This document shows positions 3,317 through 45,170 of a stretch of DNA of 64,000 bases, piece after piece. This DNA comes from an uncultured Alphaproteobacteria bacterium (GTDB lineage Bacteria > Pseudomonadota > Alphaproteobacteria > Rs-D84). The translations under genes and the position numbers were made by a program. Under the pieces are notes generated by a model. That model was given only the letters and a program-made list of their open reading frames with translations, made no database searches and was not told the DNA's origin. The number at the start of each line of letters is the position of its first letter. Position 1 is the first letter of the stretch. The DNA lies in contig CALXMY010000002.1 in assembly GCA_944389595.1 (NCBI GenBank), positions 57,913 through 121,912 on the forward strand, read 5' to 3'.

Positions 3317-3386
3317 TTTGCAATCTGTGTTTGCCAAAGACAATTATTTTATGTTATAATTACATAGTAACAGGTAGCGAGGGATT

Positions 3387-5346: not shown

Positions 5347-5356
5347 GGCATATGTC

Positions 5357-18364: not shown

Positions 18365-19105
18365 TTATATTTCATTCCATACCTCTGTCAGATTCAAAAT
18401 GAAATTTTTGTTAATCATTTTTTCTTGTGCCATTAATATAATATCGTCAATGCGTGCAATATTACACCGCCCGGCCATATCCATATACAGGTATATATCG
18501 TCTTTATTTTTTGTCTTGTCAAAACAAGTGTATGCAATTTCAAGCAGACTAAAATCTGTGCCTGGTAATTTTACCCGCAGGGATTCTTTCGTTTTTTGTA
18601 ATTTACGAACAGATACCCCAAAATCGCGACAGGCTTTTAATATATGAATATAAGCAATATCAATTTTTGAAAATGTATACCATTTTTCAATATTGCCGCG
18701 CTCGTCAATCAACAATTCTTGTTTGTGTGTCCAATCGTTTAAGCAGCGACTGCTGATAGGAATATCTTGTTTATGAAATTTTTTATCACGCAGGTCATTT
18801 AAGTATCGGGCTTCTGATAAGTTGTCAGAGCAGAACATAAACACATTCATAGATTCATTTGTTAAAACAACGTCGGCCAATCGGTAATCTTTTATCAAAA
18901 CTTGTGCCGGATATTCTTTATATGGGCGGCTGGATATTAGGGTGATGGCTTGTGTTAATTCCGTTGCCAGGTCGCGCAAATCCTGTCCCTTGAATTCAAT
19001 ATTGTGCTTTTTGCTTTTTATCCTCAGAATACCCGATTTTGCGTCAAAGTCTGTACCAGTTGGGTATTCCTTGGAATCGTAGATATGTTCTTGTTTTTTA
19101 TTCAT
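18365..19105 (-). CDS. hypothetical island protein
   Basis: 246-aa ORF. A possible HTH-like segment (SKIDIAYIHILKACRDFGVSVRKL). Preceded by a 20-bp perfect palindrome. Confidence 0.4.
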   Translation of the reverse strand: MNKKQEHIYDSKEYPTGTDFDAKSGILRIKSKKHNIEFKGQDLRDLATELTQAITLISSRPYKEYPAQVLIKDYRLADVVLTNESMNVFMFCSDNLSEARYLNDLRDKKFHKQDIPISSRCLNDWTHKQELLIDERGNIEKWYTFSKIDIAYIHILKACRDFGVSVRKLQKTKESLRVKLPGTDFSLLEIAYTCFDKTKNKDDIYLYMDMAGRCNIARIDDIILMAQEKMINKNFILNLTEVWNEI

Positions 19106-19118
19106 AGCACAACCTTAA

Positions 19119-19138
19119 ATATTACATATATGTAATAT
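19119..19138. promoter_or_regulatory. 20-bp perfect palindrome ATATTACATATATGTAATAT (candidate operator)
   Basis: Exact inverted repeat 14 bp upstream of the start codon of the 246-aa gene. Confidence 0.4.
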
Positions 19139-19374
19139 ATCAAATAAAAAGCCGTTGTAAAGCAATTTTTTTATAAAAAAATCAGCAAATACAATAATGT
19201 ATGCTTAAAATAGCATACATTGTATACCGTAAATTTAATTCGCGACACTTATTTTGATAAAAATCAGCGCTATGCCACGGAATACAAGGCGTTGCGCGGA
19301 AAATTCAAAAAGTCGTTAATATCGCGCATTTTTTATAATGCCCGGAAATCCGCCATTTTATGTCATAGTGTCGT

Positions 19375-19800
19375 CTAATGTGTTTTTATTTCCAGTTTAG
19401 GTCGCTCTTTGTCGGGGTTTTCTGAAAAATCTTTCGCACATTGAATTATTGCTATGTCTACTAAATGCTCGCGTGTTTCTGCAATATTAAATACATTTAC
19501 AATGTTGTGTTTAATCGCTTTATAGACTTGTTTTTCTCTCATAACGGTGTGCATATTGTCGACTACGCATTCACAGAGTTGGTGTGTCAATATGATATTG
19601 TCTAGTGTTGTGGTGCCTTTGGGAACATATTTATCAACGCAGACCGTTCTAACCTTTTCGTCATTCTTAAAAACATCTCTAAAATATTTGTTAACATACT
19701 TATTTCTGGATTCACACATTGCTAGATAATAGGTAATGCAAGATATGAGTGTTAAAGATATCAAACCAAGTGCAATATGAACTAGTATTTTTGTTTTCAT
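19375..19800 (-). CDS. hypothetical secreted/lipoprotein-like island protein
   Basis: 141 aa with an N-terminal signal sequence containing LISC. Confidence 0.4.
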   Translation of the reverse strand: MKTKILVHIALGLISLTLISCITYYLAMCESRNKYVNKYFRDVFKNDEKVRTVCVDKYVPKGTTTLDNIILTHQLCECVVDNMHTVMREKQVYKAIKHNIVNVFNIAETREHLVDIAIIQCAKDFSENPDKERPKLEIKTH

Positions 19801-19844
19801 AATTTATCTCTTTTTTTGGTTCGACAACCTTGTCGATTCAAAAT

Positions 19845-20231
19845 TTATTGACGCTTTTTATCAAAAATTGCCCAAATTATCGCAAACAGCCAAAGTAATA
19901 TCCCCGCCGGTCCCCATACAGAAAAGAATGTCAGCCAGTAAATACCCGTGCTATGTTTTCGATTAAGAAATGTCGCCAGACATACCGGAATCATACCCAT
20001 TGCAAATGCAATCAGTGCTGACAACAGAAAAACAAGACCGGAATCGTCAACCTGTAAATATGCATTCGACCACCCTAGCGCACCGGCGATAATTGCCCCT
20101 ATGCTAACCAACCACCACGCGCTTGCTGGAATTTTGGGTGTGTGCGGTATATTTGATTTTTCAGATTGTGTATTATTTATGCTAACTTTTTCAGACATTT
20201 TCTTACCCCTTTGATATAAAAAGACCGCCAA
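19845..20231 (-). CDS. hypothetical small membrane protein
   Basis: 128 aa with 3 predicted TM helices. Confidence 0.4.
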   Translation of the reverse strand: MAVFLYQRGKKMSEKVSINNTQSEKSNIPHTPKIPASAWWLVSIGAIIAGALGWSNAYLQVDDSGLVFLLSALIAFAMGMIPVCLATFLNRKHSTGIYWLTFFSVWGPAGILLWLFAIIWAIFDKKRQ

Positions 20232-20531
20232 AGGAATGACGGTCGGGTATTTTCAAAATCATAATTGCAATGACCCTGTGGATTTCGGCGAACCTGTTAT
20301 ATAGCCACAGACACCCGACCAAAAGGTCAGGCAAAACAGTGTAAAAAACACCATTATGCTGTCAAAAACGGATAACGATGTTTTCACACCGTGCAATTAT
20401 GGGTTTTGAACGACCCCGAACCCATATCCCTATGGATTCTTAAGCAAGTATTGCTACCGCCTCAATGTAAAATTATATTTTATAAAATATATTTATGCAA
20501 ACATAATTGTATATTTTATTGTTGGGAGTTA

Positions 20532-20981
20532 TTAAATTGTATCAAGTCTTTCTTTAAGATTGGCAATATCGTCTATAATTTTATTACATTTATTTATGTC
20601 TTGACGCCTAGAAGAGGTTTCAAAATTTTTGCCTGTTGTAAGTTCATATATATCATTAAATTGATTTCTAAAATCATAAATTTTTTTTCTAATAGAACTG
20701 AACTTATTGTGAAGATAATTCAAATTTGTTGCAATGTCTTTTTTGCATGATTTAATATTATTTTCTAGCATTAATTGATGTCCTGAAGGAAAAGATATTT
20801 TTCCCCAATACTCGCAACTAAGGGCTCTAAATTCGTCTAAAAGCCCTCTAATTAGAGATAGTCTATTTTCTTTTGCTCCCAATTTTAGTTGGTGCTTTGT
20901 TATAAAAAATGAAACTATTGCAATGCAAAGTTGTGCTATTATTCCAACAACTGTAATCCAATTATCTGTGGTCATGACCAT
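20532..20981 (-). CDS. small membrane-anchored coiled-coil protein (third gene of GHKL/STAS cassette)
   Basis: 149 aa. N-terminal TM helix VVGIIAQLCIAIVSFFI and a charged helical remainder. Lies 4 nt downstream of the STAS-like gene. The region is very AT-rich. Confidence 0.4.
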   Translation of the reverse strand: MVMTTDNWITVVGIIAQLCIAIVSFFITKHQLKLGAKENRLSLIRGLLDEFRALSCEYWGKISFPSGHQLMLENNIKSCKKDIATNLNYLHNKFSSIRKKIYDFRNQFNDIYELTTGKNFETSSRRQDINKCNKIIDDIANLKERLDTI

Positions 20982-20985
20982 TAAA

Positions 20986-21312
20986 TTATTCCTCTACAGA
21001 TTTTTTTATTATATGCCATATTGACGGTTCTAATGTTATGTCGTCATTACAAATAAAGCTTAATTTGCTTTTAATTGTTTCAAATGAAATATTATTTTCT
21101 CTTATAAGACCGCCAAAGGCTTCGTCCCAAAAAGATGCTCCAACACCATCTAAACCATCTAATATAATATTAATATGCTCTACTTTTTTATCATTAAATG
21201 CAGGAAGAATGAATTCTTCTCTGAAGCGTTGTCCAGAAAACTTACCATAACTTCTATACCTTCCAGCTGGTGCTTTATGAAAGTCTTTTGCGATATTAAT
21301 AGTTTTTATCAT
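20986..21312 (-). CDS. small STAS-like protein (DUF4325-like, anti-sigma-antagonist fold candidate)
   Basis: 108 aa. EHINIILDGLDGVGASFWDEAFGGL matches the strand-loop-helix signature of STAS-like/DUF4325 domains. Lies 9 nt downstream of the GHKL gene. Confidence 0.45.
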   Translation of the reverse strand: MIKTINIAKDFHKAPAGRYRSYGKFSGQRFREEFILPAFNDKKVEHINIILDGLDGVGASFWDEAFGGLIRENNISFETIKSKLSFICNDDITLEPSIWHIIKKSVEE

Positions 21313-21321
21313 TTTTTATCC

Positions 21322-22371
21322 TTATATGTTTACCTGCCACTCTATTAGAGTTCCATTTATGCTATGGATTTTGTCGTTTAACTGTTCTTGAATTCCATTT
21401 CCTCTGATATATTCACCTTTATCACTGATTATTCTTACAAATGCACTTTTTTTCAAAGATGTAACATAGTCGATTATTAGAGGCAAGCCATTTCCTCGGT
21501 TCTTTTGATTGGTTTGTGAAATTCCAGCATGTGTAGCCTCTCTAATTTTTGCCGCATCAGACATTCCTAATAGTTTTGTCAATAAGTTTGGCCTTGTTTT
21601 TGGTAATGATTTTGGAATGCCTATGCCTTGGTCAAAAAACATCACATTAAGAGTAGATGTGTTTCGGTTAATTGATGCAGACATCCACCACATTTTTTGT
21701 TTTAATGGGCTACTCATGATAAAATTATCAGGATAACCGTGACTTAACACGTTATCCATAGCTTCGTCAAGAGCGATTTTTAGTTTTTTCTTATTTGGCA
21801 ATACGTCAATAAGGTTACTCAAAGTATCACGAAAAGTTAGGACGTCATCGGGATTAACCAAATTTCCAGACATAAATTTTAAAAATATAACATCCTTTTT
21901 TCTTGGTTCTTTTCCAAATTCTGCAGGAATGTTTTGTATATTTAATAAATCAAACATCCCCATATCGTATAACAAGTATTTTATTTCTTCTTTCCAATTT
22001 TTGAAATCTACAACGTGCAATTTACCGTTTTTGCCTCTTATCCTACGTAATCTATCTAACTCCGAAGTAAAAACTAGCGCACAACCAGGGGTTATAAAAT
22101 CAATACCAGTAAAGTCTATTTTTAAAGAGCACAATGGATCATCTGCACATTGTCTAATATCATTTAGAAAAATTCTGGTTTCTTTATTTGTCAAATCAAG
22201 GCAGGTCGGGGCTTTTAATTTTTTTCTATACGGTGAATGTTTTGCAAGAAATTGACCTTTTTTACGAATTTGTGTTTTTCTTCTGTATAATTTTGCTCTT
22301 TTGCGCAAAAGAAACTGGCGATGTTTCCAGCGTCTTTCTTTGTTATTATTGTTATATTTTTTTATTACCAT
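21322..22371 (-). CDS. GHKL-family ATPase / RsbW-SpoIIAB-like serine kinase with N-terminal STAS-like domain
   Basis: 349 aa. Bergerat-fold motifs: N-box EAMDNVLSHG, G1 FFDQGIGIP (DxGxG) and G2 RGNGLPLI. The N-terminal ~100 aa include IDFTGIDFITPGCALVF, which resembles the STAS beta-strand/loop. Confidence 0.6.
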   Translation of the reverse strand: MVIKKYNNNNKERRWKHRQFLLRKRAKLYRRKTQIRKKGQFLAKHSPYRKKLKAPTCLDLTNKETRIFLNDIRQCADDPLCSLKIDFTGIDFITPGCALVFTSELDRLRRIRGKNGKLHVVDFKNWKEEIKYLLYDMGMFDLLNIQNIPAEFGKEPRKKDVIFLKFMSGNLVNPDDVLTFRDTLSNLIDVLPNKKKLKIALDEAMDNVLSHGYPDNFIMSSPLKQKMWWMSASINRNTSTLNVMFFDQGIGIPKSLPKTRPNLLTKLLGMSDAAKIREATHAGISQTNQKNRGNGLPLIIDYVTSLKKSAFVRIISDKGEYIRGNGIQEQLNDKIHSINGTLIEWQVNI

Positions 22372-22708
22372 TTTGTACTACATTGCATATATAGTATATA
22401 AATAGCTAAATATCAATATAAACAATGAAGAATACATAATGTGTATGTATTCCAATTCTATTTCGGTGTTTTATTGTTAAAATTATTGTTTTTTATAAAT
22501 CCGCCGTTTGCAACTTTACGATAATTCAAAATGCCACTTTCCTTAATAATCCTTGCATTTCGCATTATTTCATTATAAAATCTGTTCCAGTTGTCCCAAC
22601 TTTTATGTAGTAGGGGCACCAGAGTATTTATGAAGTCTTTTCCCGTTTTTAATTGTATTTTTACTATGCTTTTTTTATAATTAATCTGTAAATTACAGGG
22701 GTTATTTT

Positions 22709-23296
22709 ATGGCGGTGGAAGTAAATATCGGCGTTTTTGGTGCCAACGAGGGATTACAAGTCAGTCCTTGTTTTCAAAATAAAACTTATAGAAATACATT
22801 GGTGAATTTATATAACCCGAATGTTACGCATGGCGGGAAACAAATGTTTGTGTTCAAAACCCCGGAAAACGATGTTGTATACGCCATGACCATTGGCAGC
22901 GGCGGCCAAGACAAGTTGTTTTACGGTTTTAATGGCCGTCCGGGTTCTTTTGTTGGGGTTGCATTGGCGATAAAAAATGCGCAATTCAAAGATGTGAATC
23001 AGGCCATGGATATATTGGATTGGGCATATGAAAATAAAATCAAAGGCAATATCATAGAAAGCACAGGCGAAAATAAAAAGTTTGTCATAGACGGATACGA
23101 ATTTTCGGGCGACAAAATACAAAGTTTTATGGATTCTGCCATTGGGGACAGAATAACCCATGTTTGCCAACGTGGCGATTGGGGTACTTTTAAATATAAT
23201 GCCGATACGGATTCCAGGGTGGCAGTATACCGATTTCCATCGGAAAAATCTGATTTAGAAAACGCGATAAAAAAAAATCAAGGAAATGGGCTTTGA
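22709..23296 (+). CDS. hypothetical protein
   Basis: 195-aa ORF with host-like GC content. No recognisable domain. Confidence 0.4.
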   Translation: MAVEVNIGVFGANEGLQVSPCFQNKTYRNTLVNLYNPNVTHGGKQMFVFKTPENDVVYAMTIGSGGQDKLFYGFNGRPGSFVGVALAIKNAQFKDVNQAMDILDWAYENKIKGNIIESTGENKKFVIDGYEFSGDKIQSFMDSAIGDRITHVCQRGDWGTFKYNADTDSRVAVYRFPSEKSDLENAIKKNQGNGL

Positions 23297-23451
23297 CCCA
23301 CATGAAGTGGCCGAATATATTTTGAAAAAACAAAAAGATTTTTAATACTTGCAATTGTGATAATTGCATTATAGAATCCGATTCAGATGGTTCAAAATAT
23401 TATGTTTTGAACATCAGGGAAGATTTATCTTCTGTTCTTTTGTTTTTTTGT

Positions 23452-23477
23452 CCCCGGGGCATGCCCCGGGGTTTTTG
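23452..23477 (+). terminator. rho-independent terminator
   Basis: 20-nt perfect palindrome CCCCGGGGCATGCCCCGGGG followed by TTTTT. Confidence 0.6.
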
Positions 23478-23578
23478 TATAAAAGGGGATTTTATACCTT
23501 GCTTTTTTATTAGTTGTATGGCTATAATATTTTTATACCTGTTATTAATAATCGTAATCAGACCAAGAGGTATGCTAC

Positions 23579-25072
23579 ATGAAAAAATTTTTACCCATTA
23601 TTTTAGTTTTAACATTGGCCGCATGTGGCGGTGGTTCTGGTGGTGGTAATGTTGGCAATGGCGGTAATGCCGGGGTTCCGGGTGGCGGCGAAATATTTAA
23701 TCCGGATGATTTTGTTAAACCCGAATATAACGGCAATGTGTCACATGATGTTGTGGACAGTAATGCCGCTGTTTTAACAATGCATTCCAGTGTTTTTGAT
23801 GAAACGGCCAGAACACAGTATTTAATAGATGCATTTGGTGAAGAATATTATAATGCGTTAATTGCCGAATTGTCTGGCAAGGTAAATGATGCTGTGGTAG
23901 ACGCGGTGGAAAATCGCGTCGGGTCTGCACGTGATAACGGTGGTAAAAATTTTTGTAAATCGGAACGCGATTGTAATCAAATGATATTTGACCAAATGCG
24001 GGAAGTTTTGGACAATTTAGATAATCTGGATGATATGAATAATAAAGATATTCGTAATGCATTAATTGCCGCCGGATTTGGAAAGGAAATTTCAGGGCAT
24101 TGGGATGATATCAAAGATTATGTGAAAAATCATATGAATATTGATGATATTAAAAACCAGGGCGAAGAAATATACAATACACCGGGCAAGGGCAGTGGTG
24201 AATTCAATTTGAAAAATACAGATTTCAAGGCAATGTTAACCACGATACAAAATAATGTTGCTGATATCATGACATTACAGATTGATAATGATGGGCGTGT
24301 TATTGGTGTCGTGTTTAAAGATGTGGGATCTGGGTCAAGCAGAGAAAGTCCGGCAATATTATATTCGGGATTAAAGCGCAACGATGATACAAATCGTTTT
24401 GATTTTTCAGATCCAGATGGCGAAATGCCAACATCGGGCGAAATGGAAATGATATCATATGCCCAGGATTTAGGATTAAGATATTCTGATTTTGGCGTTT
24501 TGGTTGGTGCAGAAAATGCAAAAATTACGGTGACTGATGAAGATGGTAATGTCAGTGAACGTGATTTGTCGGGATATAAATTGCCATTTGCCGGTGGATA
24601 TGATGTAAAGCGTATTGATGATAAAAAACAAATTGCATCAAATGTGACTTTCTATGGTTTTGCAAATGGTACGGTTGAACCCGCAAATGCCAGTGGTGCC
24701 AAAGCGTTACCAATTGAAAGCAAAAATGCAACATTAACATTTAATGCCACCAATCGCGAAGAGCATTTAACCGCGAATTTTGATAATTGGTATAAATTAG
24801 ATGTCATAAAAAATGGTATGGGCCAAGTCATATGGGTAAATACCGATGATTGTGGGCGGCGTATTCCAACGGAATATGTGGTTAAAGATACACCATTGAC
24901 CGATGGTGTACAAAATGAATCCGTGTATTTTAATACCGAATTTTATGGCGATGACAATATCCCGGCCGAGGCCGTTGCATTATTTCAATATCAACAAAAG
25001 GTTATGGATACGCCCAAGGAAGGCGGCGGGAATTTGAATATATTCCTGGGGTTTGGGGGACGAACCAAATAA
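23579..25072 (+). CDS. hypothetical surface/periplasmic lipoprotein with Gly-rich linker
   Basis: 497 aa. Signal peptide and lipobox LAACGG, immediately followed by GGSGGGNVGNGGNAGVPGGG (a flexible linker as in neisserial-type surface lipoproteins). Confidence 0.55.
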   Translation: MKKFLPIILVLTLAACGGGSGGGNVGNGGNAGVPGGGEIFNPDDFVKPEYNGNVSHDVVDSNAAVLTMHSSVFDETARTQYLIDAFGEEYYNALIAELSGKVNDAVVDAVENRVGSARDNGGKNFCKSERDCNQMIFDQMREVLDNLDNLDDMNNKDIRNALIAAGFGKEISGHWDDIKDYVKNHMNIDDIKNQGEEIYNTPGKGSGEFNLKNTDFKAMLTTIQNNVADIMTLQIDNDGRVIGVVFKDVGSGSSRESPAILYSGLKRNDDTNRFDFSDPDGEMPTSGEMEMISYAQDLGLRYSDFGVLVGAENAKITVTDEDGNVSERDLSGYKLPFAGGYDVKRIDDKKQIASNVTFYGFANGTVEPANASGAKALPIESKNATLTFNATNREEHLTANFDNWYKLDVIKNGMGQVIWVNTDDCGRRIPTEYVVKDTPLTDGVQNESVYFNTEFYGDDNIPAEAVALFQYQQKVMDTPKEGGGNLNIFLGFGGRTK

Positions 25073-31660: not shown

Positions 31661-31906
31661 ATGAATATAAATCGTGATGAAATTTTAAGTGTAAATGGAT
31701 TATATATATCCCAGTTATATAAACATTGGTATGCCGCAGAATGCATTGCTGTGCGTAATGGGCGTTTGTGTAAAATCAGATATCCGTATAAAACACCAAA
31801 TGATGCAATTAATATGTTGTCTTTTTTGAACGGTAAACGCGACAGTTTTCCAAAACCTGATTATCGGATACAGGTATATATTATGAACAATGGGTATGTC
31901 AGATGA
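31661..31906 (+). CDS. hypothetical small protein
   Basis: 81-aa ORF between uvrB and tsaE, overlapping the tsaE start. Confidence 0.3.
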   Translation: MNINRDEILSVNGLYISQLYKHWYAAECIAVRNGRLCKIRYPYKTPNDAINMLSFLNGKRDSFPKPDYRIQVYIMNNGYVR

Positions 31907-32301
31907 AAACATATGAATTAAAAAATATTAATGAAACGCATGAATTTGCGCGTGAATTTGCCAAAACATTGCACGCGCCGGTATGTGTCGCGTTGCATGG
32001 TGATTTGGGAATGGGTAAATCGGAAATTGCACGTACGATAATTCAAACACTGCGCGGGGCGGATACCGTGGTGCCCAGTCCGACTTTTACAATTGTGCAA
32101 AATTACGATGGGATATCGCATTTTGATTTATACAGAATAAATGATAAATCTGAATTGGTGGAAATCGGATTGCCATACGCATTACAGAATGATATTACAT
32201 TAATTGAATGGCCCGAAATTGCCGCGGATATTTTGCCGCCTGATACAATACACATATATATTACCGGTGACGGTGATGCGCGAAATATTACAATAAAATA
32301 A
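31903..32301 (+). CDS. tsaE: tRNA threonylcarbamoyladenosine biosynthesis protein TsaE
   Basis: 132 aa. P-loop-like GDLGMGKSEIAR and the TsaE/YjeE size and layout. Confidence 0.7.
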   Translation: MKTYELKNINETHEFAREFAKTLHAPVCVALHGDLGMGKSEIARTIIQTLRGADTVVPSPTFTIVQNYDGISHFDLYRINDKSELVEIGLPYALQNDITLIEWPEIAADILPPDTIHIYITGDGDARNITIK

Positions 32302-32304
32302 AAA

Positions 32305-34083
32305 TTATTTTTCCGCACGTTTTAACAGACTTTGCACCGCCAATGGAAAATCAGTGCTGTTTGCCAGATATGATCCGCTGACAATCAAATCCGCCCCGGC
32401 GGCCCAACATTTTTGTGCGGTATCCGCATTTATTCCGCCGTCGACAGATATTAAATATTTTAATCCATATTTTTTTCGTGTTGCGGCCAATACCGAAATT
32501 TTATGCAGACATTTTGAATCAAATTGTTGTCCCGCGGCACCCGGTGTGACCGCCATAATCATTATTTCATCAATTTCGCGCAAAATTGGTTTTAATATTT
32601 CGATTGATGAATCGGGGTTTAATGCCACACCGGCACGTCGGCCCGCACCACGGATTAATCGCAATGCATTGCGAACACCGGATGTATTTGTTGAAACAAT
32701 AATTGTATTTGCCCCGGCGGCAACGGCATCAGCCGCCCATACATCGGGACTTTCGGTCATCAGATGAACATGTAAATGTGCGCGCGTGTGTGCGCGGATG
32801 TATTTTAATTCTGCGATGCTGCCACGTATGTTTTCAACATATAATCCATCCATTATATCAACATGTATCATTGATATTCCGCCCGCGCGAAACATTGAAT
32901 ATGTAATTGGACTTTTCATATCAAAACACAGCGTGCTGGGCAAAACAGGAATAAAACTGATTTGTTTTTTGGGATGCGGATGAAAAACCGCAGTTATACG
33001 ATTGTATATATTGCGTATGCGTGCATGTCGCGCGGTGTATGCATTGCGATGTGTTAATTCGGCATCCCATATATATGTGGACAGTGCCTGAATTGATGCG
33101 GTTGCATGTGCGTTGTGCACGGGAATGCCAAACAGATTTTCAATAAAATCAGATATAAATTCGATTTCCGCCCCACCACCGGAAATAATAATTTTATTGG
33201 GTGTTCGATGTTTAAATGGGGTGGTACAGGCATCCTTTATCTGGGCACACAGGTCAACCATATTTGGAACAATTATATTATTAACATCGGCACGTGAAAA
33301 ATCATATGCGGTATCAGCCGGGGTAAAACGATCCATTTCACGCGGCATCATGGCGGAAACATTACGCTTTATTCGTTCGGCATCATCAAAATTTATGTTT
33401 AATTTTTCCGATATGTCATGCGTTATATCCGTGCCACCAAATGGTATCTTTTGAAAAAAGACCGGGCCATTATCCAACCACATTGAAATACTGGTAAACC
33501 CGGCACCAAAATCTATGTATAATTCCGCGCCTTTTTTGGTATGCATCATTGCGTTTTGTAAAAAATGTGGGTCATAAAAAGAATATGGCTGAATATGCGC
33601 CGCGTGTAATTTTGTTGTTAATTCACTGATTGCATCATTTGAATAAAATATTACGCCGAATATGGCCGTTAATCCGAAATCAGTGTATCCAATTGGGCTG
33701 TATAATTTTTTTACATTTGGTGTTTCATATCGCAACGGAATTATGTGCATTGGAAAAAATTCATCCGGCGGTGTTATTTGGGAAATCATTGAACTGATAT
33801 CAGATTGTGTAATTTTATGTTCGCCCCGCCAATTTTTGGATTTTGGATTTATTTTAAATATCGCGGGGCCAAAATTTCCGGTAATATATGCGTCATCAAA
33901 ATGGTCGCCAATTTGGCGTTCCAATTCATCAATAACAGATTTTATGGCGAAAACAGTATCAAAACTGTCCACTGTGTGCACGGATGATTTTATAATGTGG
34001 CCGGCACGCACACGGTGCGCAATGCCGCGAACGCCACTGGTGCCAATATCAAGACATAAAAAAGATGAATCAGATAAATTCAT
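32305..34083 (-). CDS. ftsA-rpe: in-frame fusion: cell-division protein FtsA (N-terminal ~345 aa) + ribulose-phosphate 3-epimerase (C-terminal ~225 aa)
   Basis: N-terminus LCLDIGTSGVRGIA, KIPFGGTDITHDISEKL...AERIKRNV and IIISGGGAEIEFISDFIENLFGIPV match the FtsA actin fold. The C-terminus carries Rpe metal and catalytic motifs HVDIMDG, HLMT, MAVTPGAAGQQF and ISVDGGIN. The 592-aa reading frame has no stop between the two parts. Confidence 0.7.
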   Translation of the reverse strand: MNLSDSSFLCLDIGTSGVRGIAHRVRAGHIIKSSVHTVDSFDTVFAIKSVIDELERQIGDHFDDAYITGNFGPAIFKINPKSKNWRGEHKITQSDISSMISQITPPDEFFPMHIIPLRYETPNVKKLYSPIGYTDFGLTAIFGVIFYSNDAISELTTKLHAAHIQPYSFYDPHFLQNAMMHTKKGAELYIDFGAGFTSISMWLDNGPVFFQKIPFGGTDITHDISEKLNINFDDAERIKRNVSAMMPREMDRFTPADTAYDFSRADVNNIIVPNMVDLCAQIKDACTTPFKHRTPNKIIISGGGAEIEFISDFIENLFGIPVHNAHATASIQALSTYIWDAELTHRNAYTARHARIRNIYNRITAVFHPHPKKQISFIPVLPSTLCFDMKSPITYSMFRAGGISMIHVDIMDGLYVENIRGSIAELKYIRAHTRAHLHVHLMTESPDVWAADAVAAGANTIIVSTNTSGVRNALRLIRGAGRRAGVALNPDSSIEILKPILREIDEIMIMAVTPGAAGQQFDSKCLHKISVLAATRKKYGLKYLISVDGGINADTAQKCWAAGADLIVSGSYLANSTDFPLAVQSLLKRAEK

Positions 34084-34094
34084 TTTCGATAATC

Positions 34095-34865
34095 TTATTT
34101 TATCAAAATTCTGGCATCGTCACGCATATCAATAATATCAATGTCGCGTGATAAAATATTATGATTTTGATTCAAAACCATTAAACTGGCAATTGCGGAT
34201 TCCGGATTTTTTTCCGGCAACATTATTGTTATTCCGTCCACGGTATGTAAATTCCAACGTCGATTTTCGATGAATTCCAAATAATCCAAATTGCTGGCAA
34301 TTATATTTGATGCATCAATTATTCCAGATATATCATTTGGAACATTGCCACGAAAAACAATTGTGTTTGGACTGCGCGTTGTGGTGGGGCGGTTTACAAT
34401 TGTGCCATCCACAGATAATGGGTAAAATTGTTCGCCATCAGTCCATTGGGCAACAGCCTGGTACAATTGAACATGTATTGATAAATTTCCGTCCGCTGTG
34501 CGACGTACGGCACTGTGCCGCACCCCAGGTGATGCAATTATACGCGCGTTTATTTCATTTAATGTCTGTTTTGTTGGCCGGGTCCCGGGTGCAACCGCCG
34601 CAGCCGCCGCGACGGGGGTTAAATCCTTGCCCGGGGCATCGGCGGAAACAGACATGCTGCGCACATACGACAGTTTGCCATGTCCGGTATTAATCATAAT
34701 AATTCGTGTTGCGAAATAAATCGCCAAAATTATTGATATTGCAAAATACAGCCAAAACCAAATTGAACGTTTCATGTCCAAAATTATATCATAAAAACAC
34801 GATGTTGAAAAGCCCGCAGCAATTTTTAATTTGCACGCAATAAATAACCACGTCGGAACATACAC
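34095..34865 (-). CDS. ftsQ: cell-division protein FtsQ
   Basis: Short cytoplasmic N-terminus, TM helix IWFWLYFAISIILAIYF and a POTRA-like periplasmic domain. Immediately upstream of ftsA. The likely start is MKRSIW at about 34775. Confidence 0.6.
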   Translation of the reverse strand: MYVPTWLFIACKLKIAAGFSTSCFYDIILDMKRSIWFWLYFAISIILAIYFATRIIMINTGHGKLSYVRSMSVSADAPGKDLTPVAAAAAVAPGTRPTKQTLNEINARIIASPGVRHSAVRRTADGNLSIHVQLYQAVAQWTDGEQFYPLSVDGTIVNRPTTTRSPNTIVFRGNVPNDISGIIDASNIIASNLDYLEFIENRRWNLHTVDGITIMLPEKNPESAIASLMVLNQNHNILSRDIDIIDMRDDARILIK

Positions 34866-35206
34866 TTGCGATATGAACCAACAGATTTTGATGTCGTATT
34901 ACGTGGCACAGACAATAATGCACGTTGCCCAACATCGCGATATTCATTTGATTGAAATGTTACCCACAATCCATCCCAATCGGGCATTATGCCACTTTGA
35001 TTCGGGGCCAATAATTTGGAAATACGCGAACGCGGCATATATGACGGTTTGTTTATCCCCAGGCATGCCTTGTGATCACGGACAAATTGTTCCATTGTTA
35101 CGGATTCATTTTCCCAATTTAATATGGTTGCGTCATCAATACTGCCGCGATTGACGGATGCGCAGGCCGACAAAATCAATGCAAATGCAATGTATTTAAT
35201 TCTCAT
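34826..35206 (-). CDS. hypothetical lipoprotein
   Basis: 126 aa. Signal peptide with lipobox LSACAS. Occupies the position where ddl usually precedes ftsQ. Confidence 0.4.
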   Translation of the reverse strand: MRIKYIAFALILSACASVNRGSIDDATILNWENESVTMEQFVRDHKACLGINKPSYMPRSRISKLLAPNQSGIMPDWDGLWVTFQSNEYRDVGQRALLSVPRNTTSKSVGSYRKCMFRRGYLLRAN

Positions 35207-39751: not shown

Positions 39752-40465
39752 ATGAAAAAAGCAGTTAAAAAAACAAAAGTTGCGCAAAAAGGCGTTAATA
39801 CAAATGGGGTAACAAATTGTTGCAGTCGTTCGCACAGAATATGGGGCGCGGTTGCGTTGGCCGGTTTGTTTGCGTGCGGGCTGATTTTGGGATTGTCATA
39901 TTCTGGGCCAAAAACAACGGAAAATATTGCATTGGATGTTGAACAATGCGATTCAATTGCAAATGAAATTATAAGTATTACGCAACGTGGCGCAAGCGCA
40001 GAAGATGTCGAAACGTTAAAGGAATTAAATACCGCATATACAAATGGTTGTGCGGGGCGTTTGGTTATTATTGAACGCGAATCAATCGCGCCAGTCGCAC
40101 CGAAGCCGGAAATAATGTCAACATGTGCGCGAATTGAACAATTATTAAAACAACGCCTGCGCCCAGAGGATAGTACAGAATATTTTGCACATTTAAGCAA
40201 TGCTGATACGTACAGCACGTTGGCGGACAAGGGGTGTGCAGATAATGCCGATATGTATAAAACATTGGCATTGCGCGAATTGGAAATTGCAACTGCGCTG
40301 CAGCCAACCGAAAATATGGGAATGAATGATGCTGAAATTGTAATTGATACGTTTAAAAAACTGGACATGCAACGCGAGGCACAGGAATTTTTAAATAAAA
40401 TTGAACAATTGATAGATCCGGCAACGGATTTTATCCTGAAAATGGAACAGGTTATAAATGGTTAA
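39752..40465 (+). CDS. membrane-anchored repeat protein, paralogue family A (YGC..N motif)
   Basis: 237 aa. N-terminal TM followed by two repeats of about 60 aa (C..IE...TY..L..GC..N). Clearly paralogous to the ORF at 41392. Confidence 0.5.
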   Translation: MKKAVKKTKVAQKGVNTNGVTNCCSRSHRIWGAVALAGLFACGLILGLSYSGPKTTENIALDVEQCDSIANEIISITQRGASAEDVETLKELNTAYTNGCAGRLVIIERESIAPVAPKPEIMSTCARIEQLLKQRLRPEDSTEYFAHLSNADTYSTLADKGCADNADMYKTLALRELEIATALQPTENMGMNDAEIVIDTFKKLDMQREAQEFLNKIEQLIDPATDFILKMEQVING

Positions 40466-41132
40466 ACTGATATCAAAAATATTATTTGCGATTATAATTT
40501 GCACGCCGGCCATGGCGGCGGATTCGTCTGTTTCCGAACGCCAGGATTGCGATACAATGCAATCGCGAATAAGTGAATTGGCCGCAATTGAATCGCCAAC
40601 GGATGCGCAATCTGACGAGTTGGCAAAATTGCAGGCACAATATCGCACTAATTGTTCGAAGTCTGCGGGTGGGCGGCGTGCCACAACCACCAGCAGAATT
40701 TCCATGGCGACAATGGCGGCCGCCGCCGCAACGCCGGTTGCGGCCCCCACAACGACCAAGGAAACAGTTGTTGTAAATGTTGGCAGTGTTTTAAAAGATT
40801 ATTTGGCCGATTTACAAAAATTGTGTGATGATTTATCCAGCGATATTGAAATGTTGGCGGATAACGGAACATCAGAGGGTGAATTAAAACCATTGCAAAA
40901 CCAATATAATGCCAATTGTAAAGAAATTGATAAATCAAAAACGGCGGAATTAGATGTGGAAACAATCACCAAAAATGTAAATGCCGGCCTGTGCGAGGAT
41001 GGCAGTAAACCAAACAAATTTGGTTGCTGTGGCGATGAAATATTTACCGATATGGGTAATTTGGTGTTTGCCTGTTGTCCGGAAAGTGGCGGCGAATGTC
41101 ATCCACCATTAAATGATGGAAATGCGTTATGA
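40458..41132 (+). CDS. secreted protein with C-terminal 6-Cys motif, paralogue family B
   Basis: 224 aa. Signal peptide and the C-terminal motif FGCCGDEIFTDMGNLVFACCPESGGECHPP. Confidence 0.5.
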   Translation: MVKLISKILFAIIICTPAMAADSSVSERQDCDTMQSRISELAAIESPTDAQSDELAKLQAQYRTNCSKSAGGRRATTTSRISMATMAAAAATPVAAPTTTKETVVVNVGSVLKDYLADLQKLCDDLSSDIEMLADNGTSEGELKPLQNQYNANCKEIDKSKTAELDVETITKNVNAGLCEDGSKPNKFGCCGDEIFTDMGNLVFACCPESGGECHPPLNDGNAL

Positions 41133-41377
41133 AAATAAATTGGAAATTAGTTTTCATCGGCGTTGCATGTTTTATAATTGGTGCCGTTGCGGGATATGGA
41201 ATTGCTGTATATGCCGGAAACAGTGTATATAGCGCAGATTTGGAAATTACGTGTCCGGATAATGGTGTGCCCGATGAAAACGGATGTTGTGCGGGGGAAA
41301 CTTATACAGATATGGGTGGATACGGTTTTAATTGTTGTCCTGATGGCGACGGACCATGTTTCCCGCCAATTAAATAA
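41129..41377 (+). CDS. small membrane-anchored protein with the same 6-Cys motif (family B, short paralogue)
   Basis: 82 aa. N-terminal TM and NGCCAGETYTDMGGYGFNCCPDGDGPCFPP, which aligns with the preceding ORF's C-terminus. Confidence 0.45.
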   Translation: MKINWKLVFIGVACFIIGAVAGYGIAVYAGNSVYSADLEITCPDNGVPDENGCCAGETYTDMGGYGFNCCPDGDGPCFPPIK

Positions 41378-41391
41378 ACAAGGAGAAAAGT

Positions 41392-42213
41392 ATGAGAGAG
41401 AAAAAAACAGGTGTAAATACACAAAGCAAACGCCGTGGTCGTGTGTGGCTGTGGTTATTTATCGTTATTTTGGTAATTTGTGGTGCCGCGACATGGGTGT
41501 TGTATGACGGCGGGGTTATTGGACGTAATGGCGCAATAAATGGCGGCTTTGTTGCGGAAACGGTTGCGGTTGTGCCGGTGGATACAGAAAATGTTGTGGT
41601 GGCGGACGAAACGCATGAAATTAAACCTGCATGTGTTATCATAGAAGAAAGTTTGTTGGGAAATATTGTTAATGACACACACATGGATTACGCGCGTCAA
41701 TACGATGCTGCGCGTACATATTCCGTTTTGGCGCAATATGGTTGTCCCGAAAATGCCCAGTTCTTTACCGATATGGCCATGCGCAGACAGACGATTGCCC
41801 AGGGTTTAGAGGCCGCATATGGCAACAACACAATGACATCGATTGAATACCTGTATTCTGATGAAAAAATTTGTGAAACAATTGAAAAACGTGTGCTGAA
41901 AAACATAGATACCGATGCGGATACTTATGATGAATTTTTACATAATGCGAATACATATGCGGTGTTGTATGAATATGGTTGCCGTGGAAACAAGGCTGCA
42001 TATATGCGCGCAGCGATTCGTGAATTGGGCGTGGCGGTGGCATTAATGCCAACCGATAAAATGAATCGTGATGAAATTGTAACCGTGGTTGAAATTTGCA
42101 AAAATCTGGGGGTGGCCGAGGCAGCACACCTGATGTTGCAACGGTTAAAGGCCCGTGGGTATGATATGGGATTTCTGTTGGAAATGGAAGATATTATACA
42201 CGGAATCCGCTAG
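41392..42213 (+). CDS. membrane-anchored repeat protein, paralogue family A'
   Basis: 273 aa. N-terminal TM, with repeats AARTYSVLAQYGCPENAQFFTDMAMRRQ and NANTYAVLYEYGCRGNKAAYMRAAIRELGVAVALMP that align with the ORF at 39752. Confidence 0.5.
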   Translation: MREKKTGVNTQSKRRGRVWLWLFIVILVICGAATWVLYDGGVIGRNGAINGGFVAETVAVVPVDTENVVVADETHEIKPACVIIEESLLGNIVNDTHMDYARQYDAARTYSVLAQYGCPENAQFFTDMAMRRQTIAQGLEAAYGNNTMTSIEYLYSDEKICETIEKRVLKNIDTDADTYDEFLHNANTYAVLYEYGCRGNKAAYMRAAIRELGVAVALMPTDKMNRDEIVTVVEICKNLGVAEAAHLMLQRLKARGYDMGFLLEMEDIIHGIR

Positions 42214-43805: not shown

Positions 43806-45170
43806 ATGAAATGGTATGGGTGTCTTTTAATTGTTGTTTTAATGGTACTGGGGGTGCCGTGTTCTGTATTGGCAGAAACCGAATCTGGGGCCCGGAAAAC
43901 CGATGATACACACGAATTTACTATGACTGCGGTCCAGGCAATGCAATTGGCCGGGGCGATGGTTGAACGTGGTGATATTGAAAATGCGGAACAAATTTTA
44001 ACCAAAACGCCGCCAATGAATAACGCGGCGTTGGAAATAGAACGTTGGTTTTTATTGGCACAAATTGCCACCAGACGTGGCGACATAGACAGCGCGATAG
44101 AAATATATCGTACCATATTAGATGCCCAGCCTGATTTGGCGCGCATTCGTTTCGAATTAGCAGTATGTTATATGCATCAAAAAAAATGGTCGCGTGCCGA
44201 TTATCATATGCGTCTGGCGATGGCTGGTGATGATTTGCCCGAAAATGTGCGTGGTTTAATGAATTATTACAGGTATATCATTCGTCAAAATAAAAATTGG
44301 AATGTGTGGTTTAATTTCAGTGCCGCGCCCGATAATAATATAAATAATGCGGTTGGTGGCCAGGAATGCGTTTATGGTGTTTTTTGTCGTGATTTGCCGG
44401 ATCCTGTATCTGCGATGGGGTATAATTTAACATTGGGCGGAAATTACGAATTTAAATTATCGGATCAATGGCGATGGAAATCTGATGCCAGTGTGTATAG
44501 TAATATTTACGATTTACATGATTATGATGACTTGTTGTTATATGTTAGCACCGGGCCACGGTTTATTTGGTCGCGTGGGGATGTATGGTTGGGGGCACTG
44601 GCAACGCGGCGTTGGTATGGTTGGCGTGGTTATAATTGGGCCGCAGGTGTTCGAATAAATGCTGGTTATGATTTTACGCGTAAATTATCTGGTGGGTTGT
44701 CTTTGCAATATGTGTCGAATCAATATGATGATTATGGCGATTTTTTAAACGGTGGCACATATTCAACAAATATTCATATGGTTTATTCAATTACCCCCAG
44801 TATTTATACTGTTATGCGTGGCGGTATTGCACGTGAGAAAACAATTGCATCCGAATATTCATATTTGATGCCGAATATCAGTATTGGTATTGGGGCCGAA
44901 TTACCGTATGGATTTGGGGTGTATTTTGAACCGAATTTTTATTGGCAGTTATATGATGCGCCACAATGGGTTGTATACGATAATGTATTTGCCCAAATAA
45001 CCGAACATGATTTTACCCAGCGTTATTCAATTTCGATATCAAATAATAAACTGGATGTATGGGGTTTTGTTCCAACTGTTGTTTTCAGCTATACGCGGCG
45101 TGATTCAAATATGTGGCAACGTGAATATGACCGATGGGCAATTGAGTTCACAATGCAGCAACGTTTTTAA
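43806..45170 (+). CDS. outer-membrane protein with N-terminal TPR-like region and C-terminal beta-barrel (DUF560/Slam-like architecture)
   Basis: 454 aa. Signal peptide, helical TPR-like repeats at about aa 40-160, then aromatic-rich alternating strands ending ...FTMQQRF (C-terminal Phe). Confidence 0.4.
   Translation: MKWYGCLLIVVLMVLGVPCSVLAETESGARKTDDTHEFTMTAVQAMQLAGAMVERGDIENAEQILTKTPPMNNAALEIERWFLLAQIATRRGDIDSAIEIYRTILDAQPDLARIRFELAVCYMHQKKWSRADYHMRLAMAGDDLPENVRGLMNYYRYIIRQNKNWNVWFNFSAAPDNNINNAVGGQECVYGVFCRDLPDPVSAMGYNLTLGGNYEFKLSDQWRWKSDASVYSNIYDLHDYDDLLLYVSTGPRFIWSRGDVWLGALATRRWYGWRGYNWAAGVRINAGYDFTRKLSGGLSLQYVSNQYDDYGDFLNGGTYSTNIHMVYSITPSIYTVMRGGIAREKTIASEYSYLMPNISIGIGAELPYGFGVYFEPNFYWQLYDAPQWVVYDNVFAQITEHDFTQRYSISISNNKLDVWGFVPTVVFSYTRRDSNMWQREYDRWAIEFTMQQRF

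What the first reader, a model, noticed from the sequence alone, without database searches (positions are those of the whole stretch)
32305..34865. FtsA fused in-frame to ribulose-phosphate 3-epimerase, and no ftsZ downstream of ftsA
- A single 592-aa reading frame carries an FtsA actin-like ATPase (through the GGGAEIEF...GIPV segment) followed by a complete-looking Rpe catalytic core (HVDIMDG, HLMT, MAVTPGAAGQQF, VDGGIN). There is no intervening stop.
- FtsA lacks its usual C-terminal amphipathic membrane-targeting helix.
- Upstream is ftsQ, preceded by a small lipoprotein gene rather than ddl.
- Downstream of the fusion is tsaE on the other strand rather than ftsZ.
- This is either a genuine gene fusion and dcw-cluster breakpoint (as seen in reduced genomes) or an assembly or frameshift artefact.
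Basis: seen in the sequence. Interest (0 to 1): 0.6.

Follow-up and report, generated by a model that had tools for sequence, protein, structure and literature searches.

The report
Conserved FtsA–ribulose-phosphate epimerase fusion protein
In a whole clade of tiny-genome gut Alphaproteobacteria (Candidatus Enterousia, order Rs-D84), the cell-division protein FtsA and the sugar-phosphate enzyme Rpe are made as one conserved 590-residue protein, which databases label only as the enzyme and no searchable paper describes.

Summary
Window 32305-34083 (-) is one 592-codon ORF. Its N-terminal part has an FtsA fold (residues 1-342). Its C-terminal part is a complete ribulose-phosphate 3-epimerase barrel (379-592).

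It is not an assembly or frameshift artefact:
- All 81 orthologues examined are single ORFs of 588-598 aa.
- At least 290 GTDB species genomes encode it, including a circular long-read MAG of 958 kb.
- The architecture persists in lineages whose FtsA half is only about 30% identical.
- Both halves are under strong purifying selection (dN/dS about 0.05).
- Rpe catalytic residues are invariant in Enterousia.

The ftsQ -> ftsA::rpe pair is invariant. No ftsZ lies next to it in any of 83 related loci, nor within about 84 kb here.

One sub-claim needs correcting. The FtsA membrane-targeting helix is not lost. An amphipathic, strongly basic segment sits between the two domains, and it matches the C-terminal tails of 108 canonical FtsA proteins.

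The most likely reading is an ancient end-to-start fusion of two complete genes, giving a bifunctional, membrane-tethered protein. Two divergent lineages keep a catalytically dead Rpe domain, which hints at a structural role.

Whether the genome has ftsZ, or a second ftsA or rpe, elsewhere could not be tested.

The parts
32305..34083 (-). Whole ftsA::rpe fusion ORF, 592 aa plus stop
   Evidence: Single ORF. Both Pfam domains are present. 81/81 orthologues are uninterrupted at 588-598 aa. AF2 model has mean pLDDT 90.8.
33058..34083 (-). FtsA domain (residues 1-342): actin-like ATPase with the SHS2/1C subdomain. Nucleotide motifs are DIGTSG (12-17), DFGAGFT (191-197) and SGGGA (301-305).
   Evidence: The top 19 Foldseek PDB hits are all FtsA (TM 0.69-0.74 normalised to target), against PilM at 0.54. 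Pfam FtsA and NCBIfam ftsA hits. PF02491 SHS2_FTSA is precomputed on deep-branch homologues. dN/dS is 0.055.
32950..33057 (-). Interdomain segment (residues 343-378). It has a long helix (343-365) whose distal part, RIRNIYNRITAVF (353-365), is amphipathic, followed by a basic, disordered connector (366-378). This is the candidate internal membrane-targeting sequence.
   Evidence: DSSP helix 343-365, with pLDDT below 50 at 370-375. Peak hydrophobic moment has a median of 0.66 in 81 orthologues, against 0.63 for the C-terminal tails of 108 canonical FtsA proteins and 0.50 for internal background. Net charge is +5 to +13. dN/dS is about 0.10.
32305..32949 (-). Rpe domain (residues 379-592) plus stop: a complete (beta/alpha)8 barrel from strand beta1 (IPVLPSTL). 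It carries H407, D409, H440, D548 and the PGAAGQ loop.
   Evidence: phmmer against PDB 2FLI gives E=2.3e-36, residues 379-586 against 5-214 of 220. Foldseek against 2FLI gives TM 0.92, rmsd 1.5 A. The catalytic columns are invariant in 81/81 orthologues. dN/dS is 0.045.
34095..34865 (-). ftsQ, immediately upstream and 11 nt from the fusion start. The likely true start is the ATG at 34775, which precedes the transmembrane helix.
   Evidence: Pfam FtsQ_DivIB_C E=4.8e-9. Adjacent to the fusion in 79/80 related loci and in two deep-branch loci, with an unannotated 207-aa gene in the same position in the third.
34826..35206 (-). Small conserved lipoprotein gene (126 aa, lipobox ILSAC) upstream of ftsQ, where ddl usually sits
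   Evidence: Sequence. No Pfam family. 76-97% identical in 59/80 loci, which is more conserved than FtsQ or FtsA.
31903..32301 (+). tsaE, convergent with the fusion (stop codons 3 nt apart), in the position where ftsZ would be expected
   Evidence: Pfam TsaE E=2e-32 and NCBIfam TIGR00150. Found in 60/80 related loci, in most of them immediately downstream of the fusion as here.

Best explanation
This is a genuine, ancient, clade-wide translational fusion of two complete genes, ftsA and rpe. It occurs in gut Alphaproteobacteria with genomes of about 0.75-1.0 Mb (Candidatus Enterousia, GTDB order Rs-D84, and deeper uncultured relatives).

**Shown.** One ORF encodes three parts:
1. A full FtsA core with the 1C/SHS2 subdomain and intact nucleotide-binding motifs.
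2. A helix plus polybasic segment with the properties of FtsA's C-terminal membrane-targeting sequence.
3. After a disordered connector of about 12 residues, a complete Rpe barrel with every catalytic and metal-binding residue.

Both halves are under strong purifying selection.

**Inferred origin.** A rearrangement separated ftsA from ftsZ and placed rpe directly 3' of ftsA. Loss of the ftsA stop codon then joined the end of FtsA (after its membrane-targeting helix) to the start of Rpe. The fusion was fixed before this clade radiated.

**Inferred function.** The protein is bifunctional. The FtsA part, co-transcribed with ftsQ, works at the membrane in the divisome. It is anchored by the helix, which is now internal. 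The Rpe part interconverts ribulose-5-P and xylulose-5-P in the lineage's non-oxidative pentose-phosphate pathway while held at the membrane with FtsA. On this reading the fusion enforces 1:1 co-expression and co-localisation, and no direct functional coupling is required.
For: - **ORF and domains:**
- **Conservation of the fusion:**
  - More than 120 listed protein clusters, all about 590 aa, carry both domains at 100-59% identity.
  - 290 hits in GTDB species genomes, including the circular metaFlye MAG OZ007020.1 of 958,618 bp.
  - 81/81 orthologues are uninterrupted ORFs with invariant Rpe catalytic residues.
  - Fused-length homologues reach down to about 26-30% identity in the FtsA half, before any unfused FtsA appears.
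  - Deep-branch loci still show ftsQ -> ftsA::rpe with tsaE nearby.
- **Selection:** median dN/dS is 0.055 (FtsA), 0.10 (linker) and 0.045 (Rpe) over 16 close pairs.
- **Structure:** the AF2 model has pLDDT 90.8. FtsA crystal structures are the top 19 Foldseek hits, and Rpe 2FLI matches at TM 0.92 and rmsd 1.5 A. The Rpe half aligns with 2FLI over residues 5-214 of 220, including beta1.
- **Linker as membrane-targeting sequence:** amphipathicity and charge match the C-terminal tails of 108 canonical FtsA proteins.
- **Motif table across the clade:**
- **Lineage context:** genomes under 1 Mb, with the non-oxidative pentose-phosphate pathway present apart from transaldolase (PMC12306168, read).
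Against: - No experiment shows either activity, and membrane binding by the linker is only inferred.
- The FtsA half is very divergent. It is about 16-17% identical to solved FtsA structures and scores 78 bits against the 176-bit TIGR01174 cutoff.
- Its nucleotide motifs degenerate in several deep branches, so its role may have drifted from that of canonical FtsA.
- The deepest branch (the P0146 group) has a short linker with no clear amphipathic helix.
- ftsZ was not found anywhere I could look, so FtsA's partner is unconfirmed in this lineage.
- A second canonical ftsA or rpe elsewhere in the genome cannot be excluded with these tools.
- Two lineages (P0131 and the P0134 cluster) keep the Rpe domain with a destroyed active site. 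Two independent activities alone do not explain that.
Confidence: 0.78

Rival explanations
1. The fusion is adaptive. The Rpe barrel has become a structural or regulatory module of FtsA. For example, its dimer or hexamer interface could cluster FtsA at the membrane, or binding of pentose phosphates could tune division. That would hard-wire central carbon metabolism to the divisome.
For: - Two divergent lineages retain a full-length Rpe domain whose catalytic residues are destroyed. These are P0131 and the P0134 cluster, the latter with 14 members on contigs up to 198 kb. That implies a non-catalytic reason to keep the domain.
- The fusion has been stable over very deep divergence, and no reversion to separate genes was seen in any relative.
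- The connector after the helix is short, about 12 residues, so the barrel sits close to the FtsA membrane face.
- From my own knowledge, not tested here: metabolic enzymes that modulate FtsZ are known (UgtP, OpgH, GdhZ, KidO), and Rpe enzymes are oligomers.
Against: - In Enterousia and nearly all other members the Rpe active site is invariant. Ordinary catalysis therefore explains why the domain is kept.
- pTM of 0.65 with high per-domain pLDDT suggests no fixed interdomain interface.
- In the P0134 lineage the FtsA motifs are degenerate too, so that protein may simply be decaying or have changed function as a whole.
- Fixation of neutral fusions is common in reduced genomes.
Confidence: 0.17
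2. The N-terminal domain is not the divisome FtsA. It could be a PilM-like or other actin-fold paralogue, or a sugar-kinase-like ASKHA domain working with Rpe. The real ftsA-ftsZ pair would then lie elsewhere in the genome.
For: - The scores are below the FtsA equivalog cutoffs.
- There are weak PilM and MreB Pfam hits.
- One NCBI record names a homologue 'pilus assembly protein PilM'.
- The window contains type IV pilus-like genes at 3387-8069.
- No ftsZ is adjacent to the fusion.
Against: - The gene always follows ftsQ, which is the canonical ftsQ-ftsA order.
- FtsA structures are the best structural matches, at TM 0.69-0.74 against 0.54 for PilM.
- The FtsA-specific SHS2 insert (PF02491) is detected on deep-branch members.
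- An FtsA-like membrane-targeting segment follows the core.
- The pilus-like genes are 26 kb away and are not linked to the fusion in relatives.
- No sugar-kinase family matches.
Confidence: 0.07
3. The ORF is fused at the DNA level, but the cell makes two proteins. Either translation starts internally ahead of the Rpe domain, or the disordered basic linker is cleaved.
For: - The connector (residues 366-378) is disordered and rich in Lys and Arg, so it is a plausible protease site.
- Nothing here tests the protein products.
Against: - In the aligned members no Met is conserved between the FtsA core and Rpe strand beta1.
- The first Met of the Rpe region in the window protein (M389) lies after beta1, so starting there would truncate the barrel.
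- The reading frame and linker length are conserved (588-598 aa in 81/81), and the linker is under purifying selection at dN/dS of about 0.10.
Confidence: 0.08
4. The apparent fusion is an assembly chimera or a frameshift or sequencing error that removed a stop codon at the junction.
For: None was found.
Against: - The same single ORF occurs in 81/81 loci from independent assemblies and hosts. They include a circular long-read MAG.
- It is also seen in hundreds of protein clusters from NCBI, ENA, JGI and Logan.
- Both halves and the linker are under purifying selection.
Confidence: 0.01

Closest known systems
Canonical FtsA (for example T. maritima 1E4G/4A2A, S. aureus 3WQT, E. coli 7Q6D)
   Same: - Actin-like fold with the 1C/SHS2 subdomain.
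- Phosphate-1, phosphate-2 and adenosine motifs present in the window protein.
- The gene lies directly after ftsQ.
- An amphipathic, basic segment follows the core.
   Different: - Only about 16-17% identical to solved FtsA structures, and below the NCBIfam equivalog cutoffs.
- The membrane-targeting-like helix is internal and, in the model, continuous with the last core helix rather than sitting at the end of a flexible tail.
- A 214-residue enzyme domain follows it.
- No ftsZ lies downstream.
Canonical ribulose-phosphate 3-epimerase (for example S. pyogenes 2FLI)
   Same: - Complete (beta/alpha)8 barrel.
- His/Asp/His/Asp metal and catalytic residues and the PGxxGQ phosphate loop.
- 34% identity, TM 0.92, rmsd 1.5 A.
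   Different: - It is not a free-standing protein of about 220 aa. It is fused at its N-terminus to FtsA through a basic linker.
- It scores below the TIGR01163 equivalog cutoff (155 against 213 bits), though above the NF004076 subfamily cutoff.
Other Rpe fusions seen among the hits: RpiB-Rpe (PF02502+PF00834, P0382) and transketolase-Rpe (P0385, Thaumarchaeota)
   Same: Rpe is joined in one polypeptide with another protein.
   Different: Those partners are enzymes of the same pathway, as in classic 'Rosetta-stone' fusions. Here the partner is a cytoskeletal cell-division protein from an unrelated process.
Metabolic enzymes that moonlight as division regulators (UgtP, OpgH, GdhZ, KidO); from my own knowledge, not tested here
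   Same: A central-metabolism enzyme is physically associated with the division machinery.
   Different: Those are separate proteins that act on FtsZ and respond to nutrients. Here the link is covalent, it is to FtsA, and no regulatory effect has been shown.

Membership tests
FtsA (cell-division actin homologue) | Actin-like ATPase fold with the 1C (SHS2) subdomain in place of 1B | tested here: met
   The AF2 model (pLDDT 90.8) has FtsA crystal structures as its best Foldseek PDB hits (TM 0.69-0.74), against 0.54 for PilM. PF02491 SHS2_FTSA is precomputed on deep-branch homologues.
FtsA (cell-division actin homologue) | Nucleotide-binding motifs (phosphate-1 DxG, phosphate-2 DxG, adenosine GGG) | tested here: met
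   The window protein has DIGTSG, DFGAGFT and SGGGA. G193, G302 and G303 are invariant in 81 orthologues. The motifs degenerate in some deep branches.
FtsA (cell-division actin homologue) | Gene located in the dcw context, immediately after ftsQ | tested here: met
   ftsQ is adjacent in the window and in 79/80 relatives. Two deep-branch loci have a Pfam-annotated ftsQ and the third has an unannotated 207-aa gene in the same position.
FtsA (cell-division actin homologue) | ftsZ immediately downstream, and binding of the FtsZ C-terminal peptide | tested here: not met
   The adjacency part was tested and fails. No ftsZ lies next to the fusion in the window or in 83 related loci, nor within about 84 kb here. 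Peptide binding and genome-wide presence of ftsZ cannot be tested with these tools.
FtsA (cell-division actin homologue) | C-terminal amphipathic membrane-targeting helix | tested here: inconclusive
   The helix is not C-terminal. An internal segment (about 353-378) matches the amphipathicity of 108 canonical FtsA tails (0.66 against 0.63; background 0.50) and is strongly basic. Membrane binding has not been shown, and the deepest branch lacks the segment.
FtsA (cell-division actin homologue) | Score above curated family cutoffs | tested here: inconclusive
   Pfam PF14450 scores 52.4 bits, above its 31.8-bit cutoff. NCBIfam TIGR01174 scores 78.2, below its 175.85 cutoff, and PRK09472 scores 21, below 409.
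Ribulose-phosphate 3-epimerase (Rpe) | Complete (beta/alpha)8 barrel of the Rpe family | tested here: met
   phmmer against 2FLI gives E=2.3e-36, covering residues 5-214 of 220. Foldseek gives TM 0.92, rmsd 1.5 A.
Ribulose-phosphate 3-epimerase (Rpe) | Metal and catalytic residues (His, Asp, His, Asp) and the phosphate-binding loop | tested here: met
   H407, D409, H440, D548 and G515 are invariant in 81/81 orthologues, with P514 in 80/81. They are retained across the clade except in P0131 and the P0134 cluster.
Ribulose-phosphate 3-epimerase (Rpe) | Score above curated family cutoffs | tested here: met
   Pfam PF00834 scores 150.8, above 21.1. NCBIfam subfamily NF004076 scores 170.5, above 165. 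The TIGR01163 equivalog scores 155.4, below 212.6.
Ribulose-phosphate 3-epimerase (Rpe) | Epimerase activity on ribulose-5-P and xylulose-5-P | not testable with these tools
   This needs an enzyme assay or complementation of an rpe mutant.

The most novel reading that the evidence does not exclude
The Rpe barrel is more than a passenger. It would be an integral, possibly oligomerising or metabolite-sensing, module of a remodelled FtsA. That would give these minimal-genome gut bacteria a covalent link between pentose-phosphate metabolism and cell division. The retention of a catalytically dead Rpe domain in two lineages supports this. The link might operate with an unusual FtsZ relationship, or none, since ftsZ was not found anywhere I could look.
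Probability: 0.15. Interest if true: 0.8.

Novelty: new variant of a known kind. Interest (0 to 1): 0.55.

Why it matters
- **An exception to FtsA's known form.** As far as I know, FtsA ends in a free membrane-targeting helix in every system studied so far. Here it has carried a 24-kDa enzyme right after that helix, stably across a clade that diverged to about 30% identity. That bears on how much load and geometry the membrane face of FtsA can tolerate, and whether the targeting helix still works when it is internal.
- **Annotation.** NCBI and JGI name these proteins 'ribulose-phosphate 3-epimerase', 'hypothetical protein' or 'PilM'. An automated survey would therefore score this lineage as lacking FtsA.
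- **A possible metabolism-division link.** If the fusion is adaptive, it would be a hard-wired link between carbon metabolism and cell division.
- **A clade marker.** If the fusion is neutral, it is still a clean synapomorphy for a widespread, uncultured group of gut bacteria. It would also be a clear example of gene fusion during genome reduction.

Tried and rejected
1. **Artefact hypothesis.** Rejected on conservation across assemblies.
2. **Search for ftsZ, a second rpe and a second ftsA.** All of these came back negative:
   - tblastn of E. coli queries against the window and, for ftsZ only, against the 80 related loci.
   - Pfam-annotated ±10 kb around three deep-branch homologues.
   - ±10 kb beyond both window ends.

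   A genome-wide answer was out of reach.
3. **Literature.** A search for 'FtsA' with 'ribulose-phosphate 3-epimerase' and 'fusion' returned 0 papers. The Enterousia and Rs-D84 papers do not mention the fusion or ftsZ. No supplements are held. Begmatov 2023 is not held.
4. **Alternative flanks.** I checked whether the different flanks in about 20 Enterousia loci preserve an older dcw arrangement. They do not. The two loci scanned carry gyrB, UDG, carD, fic and mreB.
5. **Hydrophobic moment alone.** On its own it did not single out the linker within the window protein, where it ranked 28th. It became informative only with canonical FtsA tails as a positive control and size-matched background.
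6. **Sugar-kinase (ASKHA) reading of the N-terminal domain.** Rejected, because no such family hits and the fold matches FtsA.
7. **Origin of the Rpe half.** The best PDB match is the S. pyogenes (Firmicutes) enzyme, not a proteobacterial one. This is only a lead, and I did not pursue it.
Full report
**1. Observation**

The window has a single 592-codon ORF on the minus strand at 32305..34083 (sequence read). Domain hits on it are:

| Library | Family | Residues | Score |
|---|---|---|---|
| Pfam | FtsA, PF14450 | 189-327 | 52 bits |
| Pfam | Ribul_P_3_epim, PF00834 | 398-573 | 151 bits |
| NCBIfam | ftsA, TIGR01174 | 42-341 | 78 bits, cutoff 176 |
| NCBIfam | rpe subfamily, NF004076 | 383-589 | 170.5 bits, cutoff 165 |

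Eleven nucleotides upstream lies an ORF with an FtsQ_DivIB_C domain (34095..34865, -). Before that is a 126-aa ORF with a lipoprotein signal (ILSAC). Downstream, tsaE (31903..32301, +) converges on the fusion, and only 3 nt separate the two stop codons.

The rest of the window holds no dcw genes:
- tblastn with E. coli FtsZ, Rpe and FtsA finds no ftsZ and no second rpe or ftsA in the 64 kb.
- Pfam scans of the larger ORFs find no ddl, mur or ftsW genes.

**2. Not an artefact**

- A search of 5.8 billion proteins returned, as its best 120 hits, only proteins of about 590 aa carrying both domains, from 100% down to 59% identity. One is named for Candidatus Enterousia intestinigallinarum and sits on a 1.04-Mb contig.
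- A scan of one genome per GTDB species found 290 genomes that encode a relative. The 80 fetched are almost all labelled Ca. Enterousia or uncultured Alphaproteobacteria or Rickettsiales from animal and human guts. They include a circular metaFlye (long-read) MAG of 958,618 bp.
- In all 81 sequences (the window plus 80 loci) the gene is one uninterrupted ORF of 588-598 aa.
- The lineage is GTDB order Rs-D84. A 2025 paper describes it as having genomes under 1 Mb, few biosynthetic pathways, and a non-oxidative pentose-phosphate pathway that lacks only transaldolase (PMC12306168).

**3. Depth of the fusion**

I ran an exhaustive phmmer search with the FtsA half alone against 1.84 billion cluster representatives. 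Full-length hits down to about 26-30% identity are almost all of fused length (552-623 aa). Ordinary FtsA proteins of about 400-440 aa appear only below that, at E of about 1e-17 and roughly 25% identity.

The divergent fused proteins come from uncultured Alphaproteobacteria or 'Rickettsiales' MAGs. Three of these deep-branch loci, seen with Pfam-annotated ±10 kb flanks, still show a gene in the ftsQ position (Pfam-annotated as FtsQ in two) followed by ftsA::rpe. tsaE and DUF374-lpxK-lpxC lie nearby, and there is no Tubulin/FtsZ gene. So both the fusion and the loss of ftsA-ftsZ adjacency predate the radiation of the clade.

**4. Synteny**

- ftsQ precedes the fusion in 79/80 loci. The exception is at a contig end.
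- tsaE is present in 60/80, mostly in the same convergent position directly downstream of the fusion.
- About 20 loci have different outer flanks. In the two scanned, those carry unrelated genes: gyrB, UDG, carD, fic and mreB.

ftsQ-ftsA::rpe therefore behaves as an isolated two-gene module. Looking ±10 kb beyond both window ends on a 119-kb ENA scaffold of the same species again showed no ftsZ.

**5. Both halves look functional**

- **Selection.** Nei-Gojobori dN/dS over 16 independent close pairs has medians of 0.055 (FtsA, residues 1-342), 0.10 (linker, 343-385) and 0.045 (Rpe, 386-592).
- **Rpe active site.** H407, D409, H440, M442, G515, Q519, D548, G549 and G550 are invariant in 81/81. 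The domain aligns with S. pyogenes Rpe 2FLI over residues 5-214 of 220, including strand beta1.
- **Model.** An AlphaFold2 model built on a 23-sequence alignment has mean pLDDT 90.8 and pTM 0.65.
- **Fold matches.** The best Foldseek PDB matches are 19 FtsA chains (TM 0.69-0.74 normalised to target). Rpe structures follow (2FLI TM 0.92, rmsd 1.5 A). PilM scores only 0.54.
- **FtsA motifs.** The window protein keeps the FtsA nucleotide motifs DIGTSG, DFGAGFT and SGGGA.

**6.

The model has a long helix at 343-365. A disordered basic stretch follows (pLDDT below 50 at 370-375), and Rpe strand beta1 starts at about residue 379.

The consensus of 81 orthologues is HRnaYiARheRWanrtnrItkiFkRK-pKk-kprFIPILPSTLCFDM. 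As a positive control I used the last 30 residues of 108 unfused canonical FtsA proteins.

| Segment | Median peak 12-mer hydrophobic moment | Internal-segment background |
|---|---|---|
| Canonical FtsA C-terminal tails (n=108) | 0.63 | 0.48 |
| Fused-protein linker (n=81) | 0.66 | 0.50 |

For the linker against its background, Mann-Whitney p is about 3e-20. The sequences are related, so this is not an independent-sample probability. The linker carries a net charge of +5 to +13 and a similar mix of W/F and basic residues.

The membrane-targeting-like element is therefore retained between the domains, not lost. This also fits an end-to-start fusion of two complete genes through loss of the ftsA stop codon.

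Two caveats apply. Membrane binding is inferred only. And the deepest branch (P0146, P0154, P0158, P0177) has a shorter linker with no clear amphipathic helix.

**7. Variation across the clade**

Rpe motifs are intact in all fused members examined except two lineages:
- **P0131:** NxD, NLM, the PG..GQ loop deleted, and YDIY in place of VDGG.
- **The P0134 cluster:** YTT, SG..IE and VCGD. It has 14 members on contigs up to 198 kb.

In these two lineages the active site is destroyed but the domain and the protein length are retained. In P0134 the FtsA motifs are degenerate as well.

FtsA nucleotide motifs are more plastic in general. DIG becomes YxG in P0141, P0145 and P0148. GGGA becomes GAG, GHN, GLA or GRG in several members of the deepest group.

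**8. Interpretation**

The best-supported reading is a genuine, ancient, bifunctional fusion with three parts:
- an FtsA that is co-transcribed with ftsQ;
- an anchoring element that is now internal;
- an active Rpe held at the membrane with it.

The shown steps are the single ORF, its conservation, the folds, the catalytic residues, the selection and the synteny. The inferred steps are membrane binding by the linker, divisome function of the divergent FtsA half, epimerase activity, and the stop-loss origin.

The main rival is that the barrel has a structural or regulatory role for FtsA. The two 'dead-Rpe' lineages and the absence of any reversion support that rival. The invariant active site everywhere else weakens it.

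Other readings are less likely, for the reasons given under rival explanations: a PilM-like or paralogous identity for the N-terminal half, separation into two proteins after translation, and an artefact.

**9. Novelty and limits**

The sequences are public, but they are annotated as 'ribulose-phosphate 3-epimerase', 'hypothetical protein' or 'PilM'. A full-text search of 8 million papers found none that combine FtsA, ribulose-phosphate 3-epimerase and fusion. The Enterousia and Rs-D84 papers do not mention the fusion.

I rate it a new variant of a known kind: a new, clade-defining domain architecture of FtsA.

The main gap is genome-wide. I could not establish whether these genomes encode ftsZ, or a second ftsA or rpe, elsewhere. 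Only about 84 kb of this genome and ±6-10 kb around the fusion in 83 relatives could be viewed.

Noticed in passing
P0131 and the P0134 cluster (homologues of window 32305-32949): Two divergent fused lineages keep a full-length Rpe domain whose catalytic residues are destroyed. P0134 also has degenerate FtsA ATP motifs. The cluster has 14 members at 90% identity or more, on contigs up to 198 kb. This may mean the barrel has a non-catalytic role.
   Followed up: partly
window 16594-24000: There is a low-GC island (GC 0.33-0.36, against about 0.41 elsewhere) next to a large serine recombinase (16594-18138; Resolvase plus Zn_ribbon_recom). A 119-kb ENA scaffold of the same species spans DUF374..SecB in 52.6 kb, against 63.4 kb in the window. 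The window therefore carries about 10.8 kb extra, plausibly this mobile element.
   Followed up: partly
window 34826-35206 (-): The small lipoprotein gene upstream of ftsQ has no Pfam family but is 76-97% identical across Enterousia. That is far more conserved than the adjacent FtsQ (44-72%) or the FtsA half (51-79%). It sits where ddl normally lies, and its function is unknown.
   Followed up: no
window 152-8069, and L081-L085: DUF374-lpxK-lpxC is followed by type IV pilus or T2SS-like genes (a PilO-like gene, the T2SSE ATPase and the T2SSF platform). VirB3 and VirB4 type IV secretion genes lie just outside the window start. In deep-branch relatives, DUF374-lpxK-lpxC sits within a few kb of ftsQ-ftsA::rpe. 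lpxC normally follows ftsZ in Alphaproteobacteria (my own knowledge), so this could be a remnant of the old cluster.
   Followed up: partly
window 43806-45170 (+): A Slam (surface lipoprotein assembly modifier, PF04575) homologue with TPR repeats occurs in a genome of about 0.9 Mb. Several neighbouring ORFs have no family (39752-42213).
   Followed up: no
L051 (CAVGNU010000015.1): A contig labelled 'Bacteroides fragilis ... cleanbin' carries the fusion with full Enterousia synteny (AsmA, UvrB, TsaE, FtsQ, LolC). It is almost certainly a mis-binned Rs-D84 contig in a public genome.
   Followed up: no
hits P0382, P0385-P0387, P0389, P0390: Other Rpe fusions exist in public data: RpiB-Rpe, and transketolase-Rpe in Thaumarchaeota. 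These join Rpe to enzymes of its own pathway, unlike the FtsA fusion.
   Followed up: no
window 31661-31906 (+): An 81-aa ORF between uvrB and tsaE has detectable homologues in only 10 of 80 related loci, at 33-72% identity. It is either a variable small gene or a spurious ORF.
   Followed up: no
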